This document shows positions 50,417 to 59,890 of a stretch of DNA of 64,000 bases, one piece after another. Origin of the DNA: Escherichia coli (lineage in GTDB: Bacteria; Pseudomonadota; Gammaproteobacteria; Enterobacterales; Enterobacteriaceae); assembly GCF_044324875.1 (NCBI RefSeq), contig NZ_CP172185.1, one strand, 5' to 3'. The first letter of the stretch is position 1, and every line of letters starts with the position of its first letter. The notes below the pieces were generated by a model. It did not search any database. It saw only the letters and a list, made by a program, of their open reading frames with translations, and was not told the DNA's origin. The translations under genes and the position numbers were made by a program.

Positions 50417-50790
50417 CCTCGCGCATACAACCGGGCAGTGATGTGATTGTCTGCGCTGAAATGGACGAACAGTGGGGCTACGTCGGTGCTAAATCACGTC
50501 AGCGCTGGCTGTTTTACGCGTATGACAGGATACGGAGGACGGTTGTGGCGCACGTCTTCGGTGAACGCACTCTGGCCACACTGGAGCGTCTTCTGAGCCT
50601 GCTGTCGGCCTTTGAGGTCGTGGTATGGATGACGGATGGCTGGCCGCTGTATGAATCACGCCTGAAGGGAAAGCTGCACGTTATCAGCAAGCGTTACACT
50701 CAGCGCATTGAGCGACATAATCTGAATCTGAGATCTGGCAAGGCTGGGACGGAAGTCACTGTCGTTCTCAAAATCGGTGGAGCTGCATGA
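50335..50790 (+). CDS. insB: IS1 InsB (expressed as InsAB by frameshift)
   Basis: matches the IS1 InsB region. Confidence 0.85.
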
Positions 50791-51430
50791 CAAGGTCATC
50801 GGGCATTATCTGAACATAAAACACTATCAGTAAGTTGGAGTCATTACCAACGGTAAATATCCATAAGTGTGGGCTTGCGGAATAAATAGTTTGGTTAAAG
50901 ATAAGGTGGTTTAATACTGCTGAGTATTTTATAGGAGATATGATGTTGTTTTATAAACAAACTAAAAAACATGAAGTTTAATTGATAGGGGACAATGAAA
51001 TCTCCTTTTTAAACTCAATTGCTATGTTGGGTTTATGGGGTTGCTATAAACGGTTTTGAATAAACGCTTTACTATTCTCATGAAAACAGTGTTATGTTGT
51101 TATTTTAACAACCCCGCATTGTTTTTTGATGGGATGGGTATTAAGACTTTAGAGAAACTTTATAAATAAATATATGTATTCAATAGTGGCGAAAATAATA
51201 ACCCATCTTATTATTACATTGTGGAAGTGCTCTTTTTTATTATCGCTCATGTTTTACCTTTCTGTTAAAACATATTCTTTCGGATATGTAAAATGGTAAG
51301 AGATAGTTAATCTACGTATGCATGGGGGCGTTTCATTGCATGGCGTTATAATCTGGCTTGTATATAAAGGCACTATAAGTTTTACTCTTACAGTGCCTTT
51401 ATTTGGCCATGATTTACCCTCTACAATAAA

Positions 51431-53818
51431 TTAATCATTACAGGATAGGTTCATATTCCATTCATAAGCCTCAATGCCGTTAATCAGTAGTTGACGACTT
51501 TCTCCCTGAGGAATTATCACTTTCAATGTTTCCCATGCAGGGCGATAATCTCCATGAGTGTTTATTCTTAACTCAATTGTAGTGGCTGTGCAGTCCAGCT
51601 CCCATTCAAGCCACAGAGCATTACCTTCAGTATATCCCCAAGTTTCGCCATCATCTTCAAACAGAAGTCCGGTGGATTTACCCGTTCCTTTAATTGGGAA
51701 TAATTTCAATTTACGATGATTATCTTCCGCTTCACTCACGTATGTTATACGTTCACTAAGAGGAATACCTGCACCTGCACGTACTAATAATGGTAGTTTT
51801 TCCAGTGGCGCGTCGATTGTTATCCATTGACCACCACAGAACCATTCGCCATTGTAAAAGTCGTACCATCCTGTTTTGTTGTCGGGTAACCATACTCGTC
51901 GTTGTCGTTGCCCTGCTTCCACGACACTTGCAACCAGAATATCGCGTCCCAGCATAAAATCATCACATTCTTCAAATGTCTGAACATCGTGCTCATGATC
52001 AAGGAAGGTTGGACGTAATATTGGCTCATCATCGGCATGTGCCTGCCACAATAATGTATATAAATAAGGCATAAGACGATAACGTAACTCAATTGCACTA
52101 CGAATCGCGGGTGTTACTTCCGGATACATCCATGGTTCATTGACAGTATGATCATCATTCCACGAGTGGATCGTAAATCGGGGGTGCATAACACCGTTCT
52201 GAACCCAACGAACAAATAATTCTGGATCAGGCTTATCACCAGAAAAACCACCGACATCATGACCAATGTTATACAATCCTGAGAGGCTCATTCCCAGCCC
52301 CATGCGGGTGTTGTATCGAAGGGTATCCCAGTTAGTTCGGTTGTCCCCACTCCATGTCTGAACATAACGCTGCAATCCGGCGCATCCAGAGCGGGAAATC
52401 AAATATGGTCGTTTGTTCGGTGCAAATTTTTGCTGTGCTTCCATAGATGCTCTGCACATTAAAAGAGGCATTACTGGCCGAATGTGTTTAATGGCGATTT
52501 CTTTGCCAAAACCATGACAGCGCGCTTCCCCATCCCATACTTCAAACTCATTGTTATCATTCCAGGTGGAATCAATTCCCATTTCAAGTAGTTGTGTGGT
52601 TACACCTTCCTGCCACCATGCGACTGTTTGTGGGTTCGTAAAGTCCAGATGAGAACCCTCATCATCCCAGAAGCTGGAGCGTTCCGGGACGTTGTATTCA
52701 GAGTCACGAATAAAGAGCTCTTGTTCTGCTACTTCGTTATAGCGAGGATGATCCTGCAATAAACATGGTTTTATATTAGCGGCCAGGTGTATCCCTGCAT
52801 TATGAAACTCCTGACTCATCATTTTAGGGTGTGGAACTTTGTCGTAATTCCAGTTGAATACGTAGCGTTTACCATTAATAGAAGTATAACCAGAAGATAG
52901 CTGGAAAGAATCACATGGAATAGCATGTTCCTTACAAAGACGAATAAACTGCATCAATTGATTCTGAGCATCCGGTGCATCTGTATAGTGCATCGTGGAA
53001 CCGCTGTACCCAAGACTCCATTTTGGACCGAAGAGTGTTTTCCCCGTCAAACGAACAAAGGCTTTGGTGATATCAAGTACACATCTGCCAGTGAAAAGAT
53101 AATAATCAATATCTCCCGCCTCAGCCTGCCAACGGCGGTAAGTTGTATGATAATTATCTATTTCATTACCTAAATCCAGCCAACTATTGCTGAGGTTATC
53201 ATAAAATAATCCAAAGCTAATATCGCTACGGTGAGTAATTGTAAATGGAATATGTTTATAAAGAGGGTCTGTACTTACTGCATTATATCCCATTGCGTCC
53301 AGGTTCCGCATTTCATAGCGTTTTCCTGTGCGTTGCAGATCCCCGGATTTATCACCAAGTCCATAAAAACGCTCGTCATTACGTCGACTTTGATAGTGTG
53401 CAACACCATCACCATGAGCGTTTATCAGATAAGCACTGGTAGGGCGATCATTAACAAGTTCCTGCCACTGACCAGCATTATCCTTATAATGCCATTCAAG
53501 CCATAAAGGCTTGTGAATAATTACGCGTAATGAACTGGTCGTGATTGTCAGTAATTCATCATTCTGCTCCATGTTCCAGGTCGGCAGTGAAAAACCGCTA
53601 ATATCTTCGCGATGACGCCCTTCCCACGGGACATCCTTTTCCGGAGCAATGCTCCAGGTTCGGTCCAGCGACAAAACCCCCTTCCGTTTTAATAGAACCC
53701 GGAACATATTTTCTTCGAGTATATACAGGCAAAGAGAATGCTGACCATCAACTAATAGCTCTATATGATGGGCTGACTGATTTTGTAGTTTCCAGTTTTT
53801 TAATGTTTTCATCTCCAC
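51431..53818 (-). CDS. glycoside hydrolase family 31 (alpha-glucosidase/alpha-xylosidase-like)
   Basis: 795 aa; GH31 catalytic region (WSGDN, GHDVGGF). Confidence 0.9.
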   Translation of the reverse strand: MEMKTLKNWKLQNQSAHHIELLVDGQHSLCLYILEENMFRVLLKRKGVLSLDRTWSIAPEKDVPWEGRHREDISGFSLPTWNMEQNDELLTITTSSLRVIIHKPLWLEWHYKDNAGQWQELVNDRPTSAYLINAHGDGVAHYQSRRNDERFYGLGDKSGDLQRTGKRYEMRNLDAMGYNAVSTDPLYKHIPFTITHRSDISFGLFYDNLSNSWLDLGNEIDNYHTTYRRWQAEAGDIDYYLFTGRCVLDITKAFVRLTGKTLFGPKWSLGYSGSTMHYTDAPDAQNQLMQFIRLCKEHAIPCDSFQLSSGYTSINGKRYVFNWNYDKVPHPKMMSQEFHNAGIHLAANIKPCLLQDHPRYNEVAEQELFIRDSEYNVPERSSFWDDEGSHLDFTNPQTVAWWQEGVTTQLLEMGIDSTWNDNNEFEVWDGEARCHGFGKEIAIKHIRPVMPLLMCRASMEAQQKFAPNKRPYLISRSGCAGLQRYVQTWSGDNRTNWDTLRYNTRMGLGMSLSGLYNIGHDVGGFSGDKPDPELFVRWVQNGVMHPRFTIHSWNDDHTVNEPWMYPEVTPAIRSAIELRYRLMPYLYTLLWQAHADDEPILRPTFLDHEHDVQTFEECDDFMLGRDILVASVVEAGQRQRRVWLPDNKTGWYDFYNGEWFCGGQWITIDAPLEKLPLLVRAGAGIPLSERITYVSEAEDNHRKLKLFPIKGTGKSTGLLFEDDGETWGYTEGNALWLEWELDCTATTIELRINTHGDYRPAWETLKVIIPQGESRQLLINGIEAYEWNMNLSCND

Positions 53819-56460: not shown

Positions 56461-56857
56461 AACCACAGCCTCTGATTCTTCCGGTCAAGGGAAAATAAGC
56501 GTAATGTTCATCACCAGATTATGTACGATGAGTTTTCCACTGTTTATAGCAATTATCTTGCTAATAACCAGACAGGAGTAACCAGACCAACCGAAAACAC
56601 CGGGAAGGTGATTACCCGCTGGCAGAGGAAATCCGGTTTTTTTTGATGTCAGCCATAACGTGTTTGACAATAAAGCATTATGAAAGGGTGTTAATGAGTC
56701 CATGGGATAATTCATAAAAATAATTTACTGTGTTATCCTTTTCAAAAGAAATATTCAGAAGATAACCCCTGGCTGACAACCAGGGGAAGGGGACATTAAC
56801 AGTGTTATTATTGGTGGATAAATTATTACTTGTGTGCAGGATACACTAATGCAATAT

Positions 56858-57901
56858 CTACTGATACTGTATGCCAGTATGTTTCATGCCTGCCGCTGAA
56901 AACGGCAATATCCAGGGCCAGACATATTCACCATTCATATTTCTGCATTTCTGTACAATTTTTTCAGAAAGCGTCTCATCAATTCTTTCACGCAACTTCT
57001 CCTGCTGTCTTAAAATACTTTCGCATATTTCGAAATCACCTTCCTGCATCAGCATTTCGGCGCATTTAATGATTTCTGCCCGTTCATGCAGCACAGAGGA
57101 ATGATTATAGAGCCAGTTTACAAACAGCAATGCTTCCGGATATTGTCCCCATAATGGTGAGTATGTTGCATAGTAATCTTCTGCCGTATCCAGAGAGCCG
57201 GAGAAGTCATGCCACACAGCAAGTGGAAATGGATGCAGATTTCCGCACAGCATTTCTGCGATGTAAGTGTTTGTGGCAAAGCCATGGCGAAAATCTGTGG
57301 CGGCCTTAACATGTTCCCCGTTCAGAAAATGCAGGAGACCGAGTTCATACCAGTAAGGTGAAAATTCATCAGCATGCTCTTTCAGTACACTGAAGGCTCG
57401 CTCATGATCGCCGGTGCGTAACAGCTCTGAACCCAACAACCAGCGAGCCCCCTGATTATCTTCAGGATTGTATGCCAGTATTTTATCAGTGAGCATAACC
57501 GCATCCTGATGGCGCTGTAAGTGCACATTTGCGAGAATTGCTGCATAAAGCGCGCGCAGATAAGGCCGGTTTTCGGGATGCATCCAGATTATTTCACCAC
57601 AGAAACTTTCCGGGATGATACGATTACCTGCCGCCAGTCCTTTAAGAGCGGCGTTCAGTGCCTTACGCGGGGCATTCTGTTCCAGAAATGCATATGCCAG
57701 ATGAGCGTGTATATCAATAAAATCCGGCTCCCGTTGAGCAAGGCGTCGGAGTTTGTTGATGTAACTCGTCTCGCTGATTTCATCAGCGTCGTATGCATCA
57801 AGCACTTCTTCAAACTCCCCCAGCAATGGGCCAAACCAGGTATCCGGAAATACGAAATAACCCTGGTTATCGTGCACTTCAAAGCATAATCTATCGTTCA
57901 T
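56858..57901 (-). CDS. TPR-like repeat protein of unknown function
   Basis: 347 aa, helical repeat pattern; single gene between the integrase and the sugar cluster. Confidence 0.6.
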   Translation of the reverse strand: MNDRLCFEVHDNQGYFVFPDTWFGPLLGEFEEVLDAYDADEISETSYINKLRRLAQREPDFIDIHAHLAYAFLEQNAPRKALNAALKGLAAGNRIIPESFCGEIIWMHPENRPYLRALYAAILANVHLQRHQDAVMLTDKILAYNPEDNQGARWLLGSELLRTGDHERAFSVLKEHADEFSPYWYELGLLHFLNGEHVKAATDFRHGFATNTYIAEMLCGNLHPFPLAVWHDFSGSLDTAEDYYATYSPLWGQYPEALLFVNWLYNHSSVLHERAEIIKCAEMLMQEGDFEICESILRQQEKLRERIDETLSEKIVQKCRNMNGEYVWPWILPFSAAGMKHTGIQYQ

Positions 57902-58311
57902 TTTCTGAGCCTGTAAAACATGTGGTGATATAGTCTGAGAGCATAAAAGTTGAGATTCTGTGTATCAAGTCCTGTCTTGGCACTGAATGAATATTGCTTA
58001 CAAAGCCCCTTCATGCTTTCCTTGAGAACAATAATTTTATCTTTATGTGAATCTCATTTTTTATAATGATGTCAGATGATTGAAATGCTAAATTATATCT
58101 GAATCAACTTTTCCTTTGCTAAAGGTATCGAAATAACTGCAAGGCTGTATTTTGTAATTGCCAATTTTAAAATGTCAATTTGCTTTTAATTATGTTTTTG
58201 TAATAAGTTTGAAGACGCAAAAAATAATATAATAACAAAAATCCTCCAGCCTTGTAGGCCAGAGGATAAAATACTTAATTGAGGAAAACATCAGGGAAAA
58301 GTATTTTTGAC

Positions 58312-59496
58312 TTAACTTTCCCGGCTGGAGAGTGAATCAATGTAATCAGCGTACCATTGCATCATTTCACGGCGGCCATCGAGATACAGGGCATGATTAT
58401 AGGTACCCCTGATGGAATTTTTATCCACATGAGCTAACTGCATTTCAATCCAGGCGGAATTAAAGCCTTGTTCATGCAGAATTGTACTCATGGTGTGTCT
58501 GAAACCGTGCCCTGTGAGTCTTCCCTTATATCCAAGTAATTCAATTACTTGGTTAATGCTTTCCTTACTAATTGGTTTGCGGGGATCATTTCTACCGATA
58601 AAGACTAGGGGATGATGTTTTGAGATTGGTTCAAGCTGCTTAAATAGCATAATGACCTGCTCAGAGAGCGGCACAATATGAGGTCGCTTCATCTTCATTA
58701 CTTCTGCCGGGATCTCCCACAATTTTGTCTCAAAATCGATATCTTCCCAGCGTGCAAAACGCAGTTCTTGTGTTCGTACGCCGGTTAACATAATGATCTG
58801 AGTAGCTGTCTTAGTGATTATACTTCCGGTATAACCCGCCAGATCGTTGAGGAAGTGGGGAAGTTCATTAGCAGTAAGAAAGGGAAAATGTACTTTTTTC
58901 GGTGTAGCTAAAGCACTGGCAAGATCGGGGGCTGGGTTATAGTCTGCCCGGCCAGTAACAATTGCATAGCGGAACACCTCACCACAGCGCTGGCGGACCT
59001 TGCGCATTTTCTCCAGAGCTCCACGTTTTTCCATTTTACGCAGTGCTTCCAGTAACTCCATTGGTTTGATTTCGGCAATAGGGCGCTTGCCAATGTAGGG
59101 AAAAATGTCTTTTTCAAAGGTATCAATGATTTCATCACGATAGCGTAATGACCACCGATCGGCTTTTGACTGGTGCCATTCGCGAGCAATAGCCTCGAAC
59201 GTATTTTGCAGACTCATTTGCTGCGCGATTTTTTCTTCCTTTTTTGCCTCCCCTGGATCGCCTCCAGCAGCGAGGAGTTTCCTGGCTTCACTGCGTTTCT
59301 CGCGAGCATCGGCTAGCGTTACATCGGGGTATACGCCAATAGAAAGCATCTTTTCTTTACCAGCAAAGCGGTACTTCATGCGCCAGTATTTAGAACCATT
59401 AGTGTTAATCAGTAGATACATACCGCCGCCATCAGCAAGCTTATAGGGTTTGTCTTTGGGTTTTGCGGTTTTCACTTTGATATCGGTTAATGCCAT
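58312..59496 (-). CDS. P4-type tyrosine integrase
   Basis: 394 aa; N-terminus MALTDIKVKTAKPKDKPYKLADGGGMYLLI; catalytic R...H..R...Y region; adjacent to the tRNA. Confidence 0.9.
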   Translation of the reverse strand: MALTDIKVKTAKPKDKPYKLADGGGMYLLINTNGSKYWRMKYRFAGKEKMLSIGVYPDVTLADAREKRSEARKLLAAGGDPGEAKKEEKIAQQMSLQNTFEAIAREWHQSKADRWSLRYRDEIIDTFEKDIFPYIGKRPIAEIKPMELLEALRKMEKRGALEKMRKVRQRCGEVFRYAIVTGRADYNPAPDLASALATPKKVHFPFLTANELPHFLNDLAGYTGSIITKTATQIIMLTGVRTQELRFARWEDIDFETKLWEIPAEVMKMKRPHIVPLSEQVIMLFKQLEPISKHHPLVFIGRNDPRKPISKESINQVIELLGYKGRLTGHGFRHTMSTILHEQGFNSAWIEMQLAHVDKNSIRGTYNHALYLDGRREMMQWYADYIDSLSSRES

Positions 59497-59780: not shown

Positions 59781-59819
59781 TCAGAAGAGGTAAACTGGCG
59801 GAAGATCACAGGAGTCGAA
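59781..59819. repeat. island attachment-site repeat, selC-proximal copy (overlaps the 3' end of selC)
   Basis: direct repeat of 8348-8386. Confidence 0.7.
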
Positions 59820-59890
59820 CCTGCCCGGGACCGCTGGCGGCCCCAACTGGATTTGAAGTCCAGCCGCCTCACCGGAGACGACGATCTTCC
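59796..59890 (-). tRNA. selC: tRNA-Sec (selenocysteine, UCA anticodon)
   Basis: rc of 59796-59890 reads GGAAGATCGTCGTCTCCGGTGAGGCGGCTGGACTTCAAATCCAGTTGGGGCCGCCAGCGGTCCCGGGCAGGTTCGACTCCTGTGATCTTCCGCCA, the E. coli selC sequence (95 nt). Confidence 0.95.

What the first reader, a model, noticed from the sequence alone, without database searches (positions are those of the whole stretch)
56858..57901. Orphan TPR-like protein between the integrase and the sugar cluster
A 347-aa, cytoplasmic, all-helical repeat protein with no operon partners sits in the integrase-proximal cargo position, where islands commonly carry regulators or single-gene defence functions. I recognise no characterised family.
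Basis: inference. Interest (0 to 1): 0.4.

Follow-up and report, generated by a model that had tools for sequence, protein, structure and literature searches.

The report
Known shiA/sisB gene, TCF25-like fold
The ORF is real but not an orphan: it is the E. coli copy of shiA/sisB, a pathogenicity-island gene already reported to dampen host inflammation. [quoted passage not shown]

Summary
The 347-aa ORF at 56858-57901 (-) exists as described. It is under purifying selection, has no signal peptide or membrane segment, and is mostly helical with TPR-like repeats. It is probably transcribed alone.

It is not uncharacterised. The window is the selC island (AGI-3) of avian E. coli BEN2908, and the ORF is a shiA/sisB-type allele:
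- 96% identical to the Shigella flexneri protein.
- Same int-then-gene layout as SHI-2.
- The published shiA primers match exactly and give the published 292-bp product.

ShiA, SisA and SisB are reported to suppress host inflammation. No mechanism was found in the held literature.

New here:
- The family occurs in 36% of complete E. coli genomes and on 75 plasmids. It also sits on ICEs, Tn3-family transposons and islands of alpha-, beta- and gamma-proteobacteria, including environmental species. It has no conserved partner gene and no phage copies.
- Its predicted fold best matches yeast Rqc1, and divergent bacterial relatives pass Pfam's Tcf25 threshold.

I read it as a stand-alone protein-binding adaptor of the TCF25/Rqc1 superfamily. 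The defence idea has no direct support. The gene is already known. The TCF25 link is a modest, testable new lead.

The parts
56858..57901 (-). shiA/sisB-type gene: 347-aa acidic cytoplasmic TPR-like protein of the TCF25/Rqc1 superfamily
   Evidence: ORF. RefSeq WP_097416716.1. 96% identical to the S. flexneri protein P0001. AF2 pLDDT 92.3. Best fold match is Rqc1. dN/dS 0.14-0.28.
57660..57679 (-). Exact site of the published sisA/shiA forward PCR primer
   Evidence: primer sequence taken from PMC3256949 and PMC2978726.
57388..57413 (+). Exact site of the published sisB/shiA reverse PCR primer. With the forward site it gives 292 bp, the published product size.
   Evidence: The sisA-specific reverse primer has no match within 3 mismatches in the window but matches the SisA loci L002-L006 exactly.
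57902..58311 (-). 410-bp AT-rich spacer between the integrase and the ORF. It holds a terminator-like hairpin (58267..58241) and a promoter-like site, TTGACA-18-CAAAAT (58178..58149).
   Evidence: GC 0.34. Consensus scans. Sequence read. Function is inferred, not shown.
56766..56786 (-). Hairpin with a 9-bp stem, 72 bp (to its 5' end) downstream of the stop codon; possible terminator with a weak T-run
   Evidence: It lies inside the roughly 300 bp downstream of the gene that is conserved with SHI-2 and with SisA loci.
58312..59496 (-). P4-type tyrosine integrase of the island, directly upstream on the same strand
   Evidence: The integrase plus ORF module is at least 80% covered in 563 of 5426 complete E. 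coli genomes.
59796..59890 (-). tRNA-Sec (selC), the integration site. The 16-bp direct repeat TTCGACTCCTGTGATC lies at 59804..59819.
8371..8386 (-). Distal copy of the 16-bp selC direct repeat. It marks the far end of the island (about 51.4 kb between repeats).
   Evidence: The repeat sequence is quoted in PMC6174562.
56500..56698 (+). Degraded 3' remnant of the sulfatase/phosphoethanolamine-transferase gene that lies convergent to sisA in pheV/pheU islands
   Evidence: tblastn E 1e-9 and 1e-8, with in-frame stops and a frame change. DNA similarity to the SisA locus runs to 56533.

Best explanation
The ORF is the shiA/sisB-type allele of the ShiA/SisA/SisB family. Here it is carried as the first cargo gene of the selC island AGI-3 of avian pathogenic E. 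coli BEN2908.

What is shown:
- It is probably monocistronic and is under purifying selection.
- It encodes a roughly 39-kDa acidic cytoplasmic protein with an N-terminal beta-hairpin followed by a TPR-like alpha-solenoid.
- The family is cargo on many mobile elements: tRNA islands, ICEs, Tn3-family transposons and conjugative plasmids. These occur in alpha-, beta- and gamma-proteobacteria, including environmental species.
- No partner gene is conserved.
- The family belongs to the superfamily of the eukaryotic TCF25/Rqc1 domain. The evidence is the best fold match plus a sequence bridge through bacterial relatives that pass Pfam's Tcf25 threshold.

What comes from the literature: ShiA, SisA and SisB lower host inflammation in animal infection models. 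No mechanism was found in the literature I could search.

What is inferred: the homologous part of Rqc1/TCF25 holds ubiquitin and a RING domain in a fixed orientation. By analogy, this protein would be a non-enzymatic adaptor that clamps one or two partner proteins on its helical repeat surface. It travels alone and is strongly conserved across bacterial classes, so the partner is most likely a conserved component of the bacterial cell. The effect on host inflammation would then be indirect.

Confidence is about 0.97 for the identity, about 0.8 for superfamily membership, and about 0.45 for 'adaptor acting inside the bacterium'.
For: Identity:
- The window is 100% identical to BEN2908.
- The protein is 96% identical to the S. 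flexneri protein P0001, which sits 411 bp after an integrase, as here.
- DNA is 95% identical to that Shigella contig from the integrase to 277 bp past the stop codon.
- The published primers match exactly and give 292 bp. The sisA-specific primer instead matches the 84%-identical P0006 genes at pheV/pheU.
- PMC6174562 states that SHI-2 (including shiA) and the 49.6-kb avian island share this head segment.
- PMC13340028 equates PGAP's TPR protein of 1,044 bp with SisA.

Stand-alone gene:
- Hairpins and a promoter-like site flank it.
- No neighbour is conserved.
- A recombinase lies within 1 kb in only 10 of 47 locus groups.

Mobile-element cargo:
- pheV/pheU islands.
- A CP4-like island.
- Tn3-family tnpA | gene | tnpR arrangement in Morganella, Klebsiella and Serratia.
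- ICEs.
- An ISL3 element.
- 75 plasmids, 45 of them conjugative.
- 37 species in the species-representative genome collection.
- 1964 of 5426 complete E. coli genomes, with up to 5 copies each.

TCF25/Rqc1 link:
- Foldseek also ranks it first, with TM-score 0.55 normalised to the query.
- 17 of 61 divergent family representatives hit Pfam Tcf25; the best E-value is 2.5e-10.
- P0124 scores 40.5 bits against a cut-off of 24.2, covering profile positions 38-324 of 337.
- P0124 aligns to the ShiA-family profile with hhalign probability 100%, E 1.6e-43, over 307 columns.
- Burroughs and Aravind 2019 state that the Rqc1 family arose in bacteria.

Expression reported in papers: shiA is induced anaerobically (PMC4229854), and sisA is expressed in urine of 6 of 8 UTI patients (PMC2978726).
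Against: - The window protein itself, and all 39 close relatives, do not reach Pfam Tcf25.
- A profile of the family finds no Rqc1/TCF25 chain in the PDB by sequence. The link is therefore transitive plus structural.
- The Rqc1 C-terminal domain in 9ofv is itself an AlphaFold model fitted into low-resolution density (PMC12215860).
- The basic, disordered N-terminal region that tethers Rqc1 to the ribosome is absent.
- No partner is identified, so 'adaptor' rests on analogy.
- An indirect route to the inflammation phenotype is untested.
- The primary ShiA and SisA/B papers could not be read here.
Confidence: 0.6

Rival explanations
1. Host-directed TCF25 mimic. The protein reaches host cells by lysis, vesicles or an unrecognised secretion route. 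There it binds ubiquitin and/or a RING E3 ligase as TCF25/Rqc1 does. This skews ubiquitin-dependent innate signalling and directly lowers inflammation.
For: - The Rqc1/TCF25 C-terminal domain binds ubiquitin and the Listerin RING domain and imposes K48 linkage (PMC12215860, PMC12047659).
- This protein shares that fold and superfamily.
- The reported phenotype is suppression of host inflammation.
- Many carriers are associated with eukaryotes: rhizobia, Agrobacterium, Rhodobacteraceae/Rhodospirillales MAGs that I take from their bin names to be sponge-derived (not verified), Pseudomonas amygdali, Photobacterium damselae, Aeromonas.
Against: - There is no signal peptide, and the N-terminus is a confidently folded beta-hairpin. 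From general knowledge, type III secretion signals are usually disordered.
- A review read here lists ShiA among predicted cytoplasmic proteins (PMC7545054).
- UPEC CFT073, where SisA/B act, has no type III secretion system (my own knowledge).
- The family is also common in free-living soil and water bacteria and in the laboratory strain REL606.
- shiA PCR was positive in 35% of EAEC cases and 36% of controls.
Confidence: 0.17
2. Conflict function for the mobile element: a single-gene anti-phage or anti-plasmid defence, or a counter-defence. The TPR module would sense or sequester a foreign protein.
For: - It sits in integrase-proximal and hot-spot cargo positions.
- Its neighbours include HipA plus AbiEi and type I restriction genes HsdR and a methyltransferase.
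- Other neighbours match PADLOC candidate systems PDC-M40B and PDC-M09A next to a WYL regulator.
- Others are the antirestriction gene KlcA and DUF932.
- It occurs in variable positions of ICEs.
- Its distribution is patchy and clearly horizontally spread, with up to 5 copies per genome.
Against: - No PADLOC model matches at E up to 1, and there is no meaningful PHROG match.
- No effector domain (nuclease, TIR, protease, pore) is present; the protein is only a repeat scaffold.
- Phage-encoded copies, which would be expected for a common counter-defence, are absent from 50,697 phage records.
- No held paper links sisA or shiA with anti-phage defence.
- Sequence conservation is high for a gene in an arms race (dN/dS 0.14-0.28).
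Confidence: 0.12
3. Accessory factor of the element's site-specific recombination module. It would control expression or activity of the adjacent integrase or resolvase, or stabilise the element during transfer. This would be analogous to the toxin-antitoxin pairs embedded next to res/tnpR in Tn3-family transposons.
For: - In E. coli and Shigella it is the first gene after the integrase on the same strand.
- In three Tn3-family elements it lies between tnpA and tnpR and overlaps the tnpR start, by 4 bp in pCAV1344-40.
- It directly follows an ISL3 transposase in Verrucomicrobium.
- Lima-Mendez et al. 2020 report toxin-antitoxin pairs in a unique position as part of the Tn3 transposition module (PMC7157771: title, abstract and section headings only).
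Against: - The linked recombinases belong to several unrelated classes (tyrosine, serine, DDE). A specific cofactor would not serve them all.
- Only 12 of 47 locus groups have a recombinase within 3 kb.
- A terminator-like hairpin and a separate promoter-like site uncouple it from the integrase here.
- SisA loci share the gene but not the integrase or the spacer with this locus.
- No DNA-binding domain was found (Pfam).
Confidence: 0.09
4. Ordinary housekeeping TPR scaffold (of the LapB, YbgF or PilF kind) that happens to lie in the island.
For: - Generic TPR Pfam matches.
- One database name, 'LapB', is given to a distant relative.
- Some very divergent relatives lie in apparently chromosomal settings.
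Against: - It is present in only 36% of complete E. coli genomes, and PMC2978726 lists sisA among genes absent from K-12.
- It is always inside islands, plasmids or transposons in Enterobacterales.
- It has no conserved partners.
- It has no signal peptide or membrane anchor of the kind those scaffolds carry (my own knowledge).
Confidence: 0.02

Closest known systems
ShiA of the Shigella flexneri SHI-2 island (selC)
   Same: - 96% amino-acid identity to the S. flexneri protein.
- Same length (347 aa).
- Same position as the first gene after the selC-adjacent P4-type integrase.
- About 95% DNA identity from the integrase to 277 bp past the stop codon.
- The published primers match.
   Different: - The host is avian ExPEC rather than Shigella.
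- The cargo behind it differs: sugar-utilisation genes here, whereas the reviews read here describe SHI-2 as carrying aerobactin genes; the short Shigella contigs ended before that point.
- The inflammation phenotype has not been tested for this copy, as far as I could find.
SisA and SisB of uropathogenic E. coli CFT073 ('shiA-like inflammation suppressors')
   Same: Same family. The window gene carries the sisB-type reverse-primer site. SisB is reported as 96.8% and SisA as 83.3% identical to ShiA (PMC13340028 citing Lloyd 2009). P0006 (84% identical to the window protein) carries the sisA-specific primer site.
   Different: SisA-type genes sit behind a different (421-aa) integrase at pheV/pheU. 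They are followed by an intact convergent sulfatase/phosphoethanolamine-transferase gene. Here only a decayed remnant of that gene remains.
Eukaryotic TCF25 / yeast Rqc1 (Pfam PF04910), ribosome-associated quality control
   Same: - Bacterial relatives of the family pass the Tcf25 model over nearly its whole length.
- Both are non-enzymatic helical-repeat scaffolds.
   Different: - The window protein does not itself reach the Pfam threshold.
- It lacks the basic, disordered N-terminal ribosome tether and is acidic.
- The host bacteria have no ubiquitin, Listerin or Cdc48 (my own knowledge).
- It is carried on mobile elements rather than being a core gene.
RRNPP-type TPR regulators of mobile elements (RapI, PlcR, AimR)
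   Same: A cytoplasmic TPR protein of about 350 aa encoded on a mobile element near its recombination genes.
Toxin-antitoxin pairs embedded in the Tn3-family transposition module
   Same: The gene occupies the privileged position between tnpA and tnpR in three Tn3-family elements. PMC7157771 describes that position for toxin-antitoxin pairs.
   Different: It is a single gene of about 340 aa with no toxin or antitoxin domain. The similarity is positional only.

Membership tests
ShiA/SisA/SisB ('shiA-like inflammation suppressor') family | High amino-acid identity to S. flexneri ShiA (published range 83-97% for SisA, SisB and the REL606 protein) | tested here: met
   96% identity and 100% coverage against P0001, named from S. 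flexneri. 84% against SisA-type P0006. The published figures were read.
ShiA/SisA/SisB ('shiA-like inflammation suppressor') family | Gene of 1,044 bp encoding 347 aa | tested here: met
   PMC13340028 gives 1,044 bp for sisA. PMC3256949 gives 347 aa for the ShiA-like protein.
ShiA/SisA/SisB ('shiA-like inflammation suppressor') family | Amplified by the published diagnostic primers with a 292-bp product | tested here: met
   Exact matches at 57660-57679 (-) and 57388-57413 (+) give 292 bp. The sisA-specific reverse primer is absent.
ShiA/SisA/SisB ('shiA-like inflammation suppressor') family | First gene downstream of the P4-type integrase at a tRNA island (selC for SHI-2) | tested here: met
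   The same layout occurs in Shigella contigs and at pheV/pheU.
ShiA/SisA/SisB ('shiA-like inflammation suppressor') family | Attenuates the host inflammatory response in infection models | not testable with these tools
   Known only from papers that cite Ingersoll 2003 and 2006 and Lloyd 2009. The primary papers are not held.
TCF25/Rqc1 (Pfam PF04910 Tcf25) | The protein itself scores above the Pfam gathering threshold (24.2 bits) | tested here: not met
   No Tcf25 hit at E up to 1 for the window protein. Tcf25 is not among the 25 families listed for the 39 close relatives.
TCF25/Rqc1 (Pfam PF04910 Tcf25) | Homology through intermediates: full-length relatives that pass the Tcf25 model | tested here: met
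   P0124 scores 40.5 bits over profile positions 38-324 of 337. It aligns to the ShiA-family profile with hhalign probability 100% and E 1.6e-43. 17 of 61 representatives hit Tcf25. Many further relatives carry a precomputed PF04910 hit.
TCF25/Rqc1 (Pfam PF04910 Tcf25) | Same global fold as the Rqc1 C-terminal domain | tested here: met
   [not shown]
TCF25/Rqc1 (Pfam PF04910 Tcf25) | Basic, disordered N-terminal region that contacts rRNA and eL38 | tested here: not met
   The protein starts with a folded beta-hairpin (pLDDT 84-93) and is acidic overall.
TCF25/Rqc1 (Pfam PF04910 Tcf25) | Binds ubiquitin and the Listerin RING domain | not testable with these tools
   Described in PMC12215860 and PMC12047659. 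No binding assay or complex prediction is available here.
Known or candidate anti-phage defence systems (PADLOC-DB 2.0) | Match to a defence-protein model | tested here: not met
   0 families at E up to 1. Some neighbours in related loci do match.
TPR repeat clan (Pfam) | At least one TPR-type model above its threshold | tested here: met
   ANAPC3 scores 36.4 bits against 27.2. TPR_19, TPR_16, TPR_2 and TPR_1 fall below their thresholds.
RRNPP peptide-sensing TPR regulators | Specific fold similarity plus an HTH or three-helix N-terminal domain and a cognate peptide gene | tested here: not met
   [not shown]

The most novel reading that the evidence does not exclude
ShiA/SisA/SisB proteins are mobile-element-borne bacterial members of the TCF25/Rqc1 superfamily. 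They keep that family's activity of holding a small beta-grasp modifier and its ligase (or a ribosome-associated partner) in a fixed geometry. If so, the roughly 20-year-old unexplained 'inflammation suppressor' phenotype would come from one of two routes. One is direct engagement of host ubiquitin or RING E3 ligases. The other is a bacterial quality-control or modification pathway that changes what the host senses. The family would also be a living relative of the bacterial ancestor of a eukaryotic ribosome-quality-control component.
Probability: 0.2. Interest if true: 0.7.

Novelty: already known. Interest (0 to 1): 0.33.

Why it matters
As a scan finding it is ordinary. The 'orphan' is a named island gene that is routinely used as a virulence marker in E. 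coli typing.

It still matters in two ways.

First, I found no molecular mechanism for ShiA, SisA or SisB in the literature I could search. The TCF25/Rqc1 relationship gives concrete, cheap experiments: ubiquitin, RING-domain and ribosome binding assays, and mutation of the invariant polar residues.

Second, several observations question its standing as a dedicated anti-host virulence factor:
- It is spread on ICEs, transposons and plasmids of soil, plant and marine bacteria.
- It is present in the laboratory strain REL606.
- It is equally frequent in EAEC cases and controls.

These point instead to a more general function that benefits the mobile element or the bacterial cell.

Tried and rejected
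- Direct family assignment by Pfam, NCBIfam, PADLOC, PHROGs and PDB sequence search gave only generic TPR hits. A sub-threshold SctY (type III chaperone) hit at 26.9 bits against a cut-off of 70 was rejected.
- Rfam scan of the locus found only tRNA-Sec. A COG2908 RNA hit inside the ORF (22 bits against 58.7) was dismissed as chance.
- A search for a conserved partner gene, by all-against-all clustering of ORFs in 59 loci, found none. The recurrent 'clusters' were alternative-frame ORFs over the gene itself.
- A universal link to recombinases was rejected: 10 of 47 locus groups have one within 1 kb and 12 of 47 within 3 kb.
- A universal link to tRNA genes was rejected. Apart from the E. coli islands, only 1 of 36 non-E. 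coli loci has a tRNA gene within the fetched flanks.
- Phage carriage: none. The viral fold library gave only generic TPR matches.
- N- or C-terminal fusions in the family were uninformative, apart from one PRiA4_ORF3 fusion.
- I tried to obtain eukaryotic TCF25 sequences for a direct profile-profile test, by searching with Tcf25-positive bacterial relatives. The 120 hits listed appear to be all bacterial; no TCF25-named or eukaryotic sequence was among them.
- The AFDB fold libraries were not available.
- The primary papers (Ingersoll 2006, Lloyd 2009, Chouikha 2006) are not held.
Full report
OBSERVATION

The ORF exists exactly as stated: 56858..57901 on the minus strand, ATG start, 347 aa. 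On the same strand it follows a P4-type tyrosine integrase (58312..59496), which abuts tRNA-Sec (59796..59890). Downstream lie a LacI-family regulator, an MFS transporter and a GH31 hydrolase.

The window is 100% identical to the chromosome of avian pathogenic E. coli BEN2908. The 16-bp direct repeat of the selC 3' end occurs at 59804..59819 and again at 8371..8386. This bounds an island of about 51 kb, the selC island AGI-3. PMC6174562 quotes this repeat for the related island.

The protein has no hydrophobic segment (maximum 19-residue Kyte-Doolittle mean 0.75) and is acidic. Pfam ANAPC3 is above threshold and several TPR models are just below. The AlphaFold2 model built on a 39-sequence alignment is confident (pLDDT 92.3, pTM 0.86). 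It shows an N-terminal beta-hairpin followed by 17 helices.

The gene is under purifying selection (dN/dS 0.28 and 0.14 against two alleles). Three features suggest it is transcribed on its own:
- a terminator-like hairpin after the integrase;
- a promoter-like site in the 410-bp AT-rich spacer;
- a hairpin after the stop codon.
These are consensus matches, so this point is an inference.

IDENTITY

The gene is not an orphan. The closest protein cluster is named from Shigella flexneri (P0001, 96% identity, 1565 member sequences). In Shigella contigs it lies 411 bp after an integrase, as here. DNA identity to that contig is 95% from the integrase to 277 bp beyond the stop codon.

PMC6174562 reports that a selC island shares its first 2.9 kb, 'including shiA (CDS 3)', with SHI-2. 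It also reports 96.8% identity over 3.7 kb with the 49.6-kb avian island. PMC13340028 states that PGAP's 'tetratricopeptide repeat protein' is SisA and that sisA is 1,044 bp. It quotes SisA and SisB as 83.3% and 96.8% identical to ShiA. PMC3256949 describes a 347-aa ShiA-like protein in REL606 that is 97% identical to ShiA, and it prints the diagnostic primers.

I tested those primers directly:
- The forward primer matches 57660-57679 (-) exactly.
- The sisB-type reverse primer matches 57388-57413 (+) exactly.
- The predicted product is 292 bp, the published size.
- The sisA-specific reverse primer is absent from the window but matches the 84%-identical genes behind the pheV/pheU integrases exactly.

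The window gene is therefore a shiA/sisB-type allele, and P0006 is SisA.

WHAT IS REPORTED ABOUT THE FAMILY

All of this comes from papers that cite the primary work, which is not held here.
- ShiA attenuates intestinal and pulmonary inflammation in Shigella infection. SisA and SisB do the same in murine urinary-tract infection.
- shiA is induced anaerobically, independently of FNR.
- sisA is expressed in the urine of 6 of 8 women with UTI.
- A hes-sisA deletion lowers virulence in Galleria, biofilm formation and adhesion, but the two genes were not separated.
- shiA was equally frequent in EAEC from cases and from controls.
- An old similarity to a 'quinone reductase' is still repeated. Nothing in my searches supports it.
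- I found no molecular mechanism in the held literature.

DISTRIBUTION AND CONTEXT

At megablast sensitivity, 1964 of 5426 complete E. coli genomes carry at least one copy, and some carry up to five. The integrase-plus-gene module of this type is at least 80% covered in 563 genomes.

Beyond E. coli, the family forms about 164 clusters at 50% identity with E below 1e-30. Most members are stand-alone proteins of 330-350 aa. It occurs in 37 species of the species-representative genome collection:
- alpha-proteobacteria (Rhizobium, Agrobacterium, Mesorhizobium, Methylobacterium, Paracoccus, Rhodobacteraceae and Rhodospirillales MAGs);
- beta-proteobacteria (Massilia, Janthinobacterium, Duganella, Vitreoscilla);
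- gamma-proteobacteria;
- Verrucomicrobium and a Myxococcota MAG.

It is also on 75 plasmids, 45 of them conjugative, and on no phage record.

The contexts are those of mobile DNA:
- pheV/pheU islands behind a different integrase;
- a CP4-like island with YeeP, WYL, DUF932 and KlcA;
- MOBH-type ICEs, either next to FlhDC-like activators or between the DtrJ-like gene and traL;
- directly after an ISL3 transposase;
- next to HipA/AbiEi, type I restriction genes, or tandem integrases;
- in three Tn3-family elements (Morganella, K. pneumoniae pCAV1344-40, S. marcescens pQC19), between tnpA and tnpR and overlapping the tnpR start.

Clustering all ORFs of 59 loci found no conserved neighbour. A recombinase lies within 1 kb in 10 of 47 non-redundant locus groups. 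SisA loci share with this locus only the gene and about 325 bp downstream, not the spacer or the integrase. That downstream stretch in the window (56500-56698, + strand) is a decayed remnant of the sulfatase/phosphoethanolamine-transferase gene that is convergent to sisA.

The gene is therefore a self-contained cassette that moves between elements.

FOLD AND SUPERFAMILY

By sequence, the window protein and its 39 close relatives do not reach Pfam's Tcf25 model. A family profile finds no Rqc1 chain in the PDB. However, 17 of 61 divergent family representatives hit Tcf25. One of them is P0124, from a bacterial contig carrying mreB, mreC, purH and purN.
- P0124 scores 40.5 bits against the 24.2-bit threshold over profile positions 38-324 of 337.
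- It aligns to the ShiA-family profile with hhalign probability 100%, E 1.6e-43, over 307 columns. The alignment shares the family's signature motifs (NRP[YF]LRA, NPxDNQGxRYLLG, PPxxY, RxxFxxNxY[IV]AE).
- Many further bacterial relatives carry precomputed PF04910 hits.

Burroughs and Aravind (PMC6514570) had already stated that the Rqc1 family 'had their origins in bacteria'. I found no paper that links ShiA or SisA to it.

Two caveats apply. The Rqc1 C-terminal domain in 9ofv is an AlphaFold model fitted into the map. I also could not obtain eukaryotic TCF25 sequences for a direct profile-profile test.

MECHANISM

Shown:
- a cytoplasmic repeat scaffold with no recognisable catalytic or DNA-binding domain;
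- a stand-alone gene;
- strong conservation between bacterial classes (38-46% identity between alpha/beta- and gamma-proteobacterial copies);
- many invariant polar and aromatic residues (R94, N111, D148, E186, R205, N211, Y213, W230, W251, E273).

Inferred: the homologous part of Rqc1/TCF25 positions ubiquitin and the Listerin RING domain. By analogy, the protein would act as an adaptor that clamps partner proteins. Because no partner travels with it, the partner is probably a conserved bacterial component, and the inflammation phenotype would be indirect.

I give this about 0.45. The rivals are:
- a host-directed TCF25 mimic (0.17);
- a conflict (defence or counter-defence) function (0.12);
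- a recombination-module accessory (0.09);
- a housekeeping scaffold (0.02).

The remainder is unassigned. The evidence for and against each, and what would refute it, is given in the Rival explanations section of this report.

VERDICT

The gene is already known, so the finding ranks low as a discovery. The added value is the TCF25/Rqc1 relationship and the broad distribution on mobile elements outside pathogens. Together these make the unexplained ShiA/SisA phenotype directly testable.

Noticed in passing
window 56485-56715 (-) and 56500-56698 (+): RefSeq annotates a 76-aa 'hypothetical protein' (WP_001323853.1) here. The opposite strand holds a decayed 3' remnant, with stop codons and a frame change, of the sulfatase/phosphoethanolamine-transferase gene that is convergent to sisA in pheV/pheU islands. 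The small ORF is therefore probably spurious.
   Followed up: yes
window 8371-8386 and 59804-59819: The 16-bp selC direct repeat TTCGACTCCTGTGATC occurs twice, 51.4 kb apart, and delimits the whole island. The published size of AGI-3 is 49.6 kb.
   Followed up: partly
window 50750-51500: A sharp drop in GC to 0.33 between the GH31 gene and a region of IS1/IS5 remnants. RefSeq places the small membrane protein gene ykgR there. It may be a junction between island modules.
   Followed up: no
L011 3325-4901; L065 5001-6577; L064 5001-6577: In three Tn3-family elements (Morganella, K. pneumoniae pCAV1344-40, S. marcescens pQC19) the ShiA-like gene lies between tnpA and tnpR and overlaps the tnpR start. 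This suggests translational coupling with the resolvase. The depositor of pQC19 already named the gene shiA.
   Followed up: partly
L002 9527-12224 (pheV island downstream of sisA): Two genes next to a WYL/WCX regulator match PADLOC candidate defence systems PDC-M40B (E 9e-43) and PDC-M09A (E 9e-23). The sisA-bearing islands therefore carry a probable defence module 2.5-5 kb from the gene.
   Followed up: partly
L056 8001-8573 (Erwinia typographi): A match to only the N-terminal 190 residues of the family sits directly after the type VI secretion gene tssG. It could be a truncated copy or a different architecture; this was not resolved.
   Followed up: no
P0213 (575 aa, metagenomic): One family member carries an N-terminal PRiA4_ORF3 ('plasmid pRiA4b ORF-3-like') domain fused to the ShiA-like module. 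This is the only informative fusion seen.
   Followed up: no
L035 7751-7826 (Roseiarcus fermentans): A tRNA-Ala gene lies 175 bp upstream of the ShiA-like gene, and my seeded recombinase search found none within the 8-kb flanks. This is another tRNA-proximal position.
   Followed up: no
window 57241-57289 (+): A sub-threshold Rfam hit to COG2908 RNA (22.1 bits against 58.7) lies antisense inside the ORF. It is most likely chance.
   Followed up: no
L023 (contig assigned to a Collinsella sp. MAG): A 3.5-kb contig that is 97% identical to the E. coli selC-int-shiA segment is binned in an actinobacterial MAG. This is almost certainly a binning contaminant rather than real carriage.
   Followed up: partly
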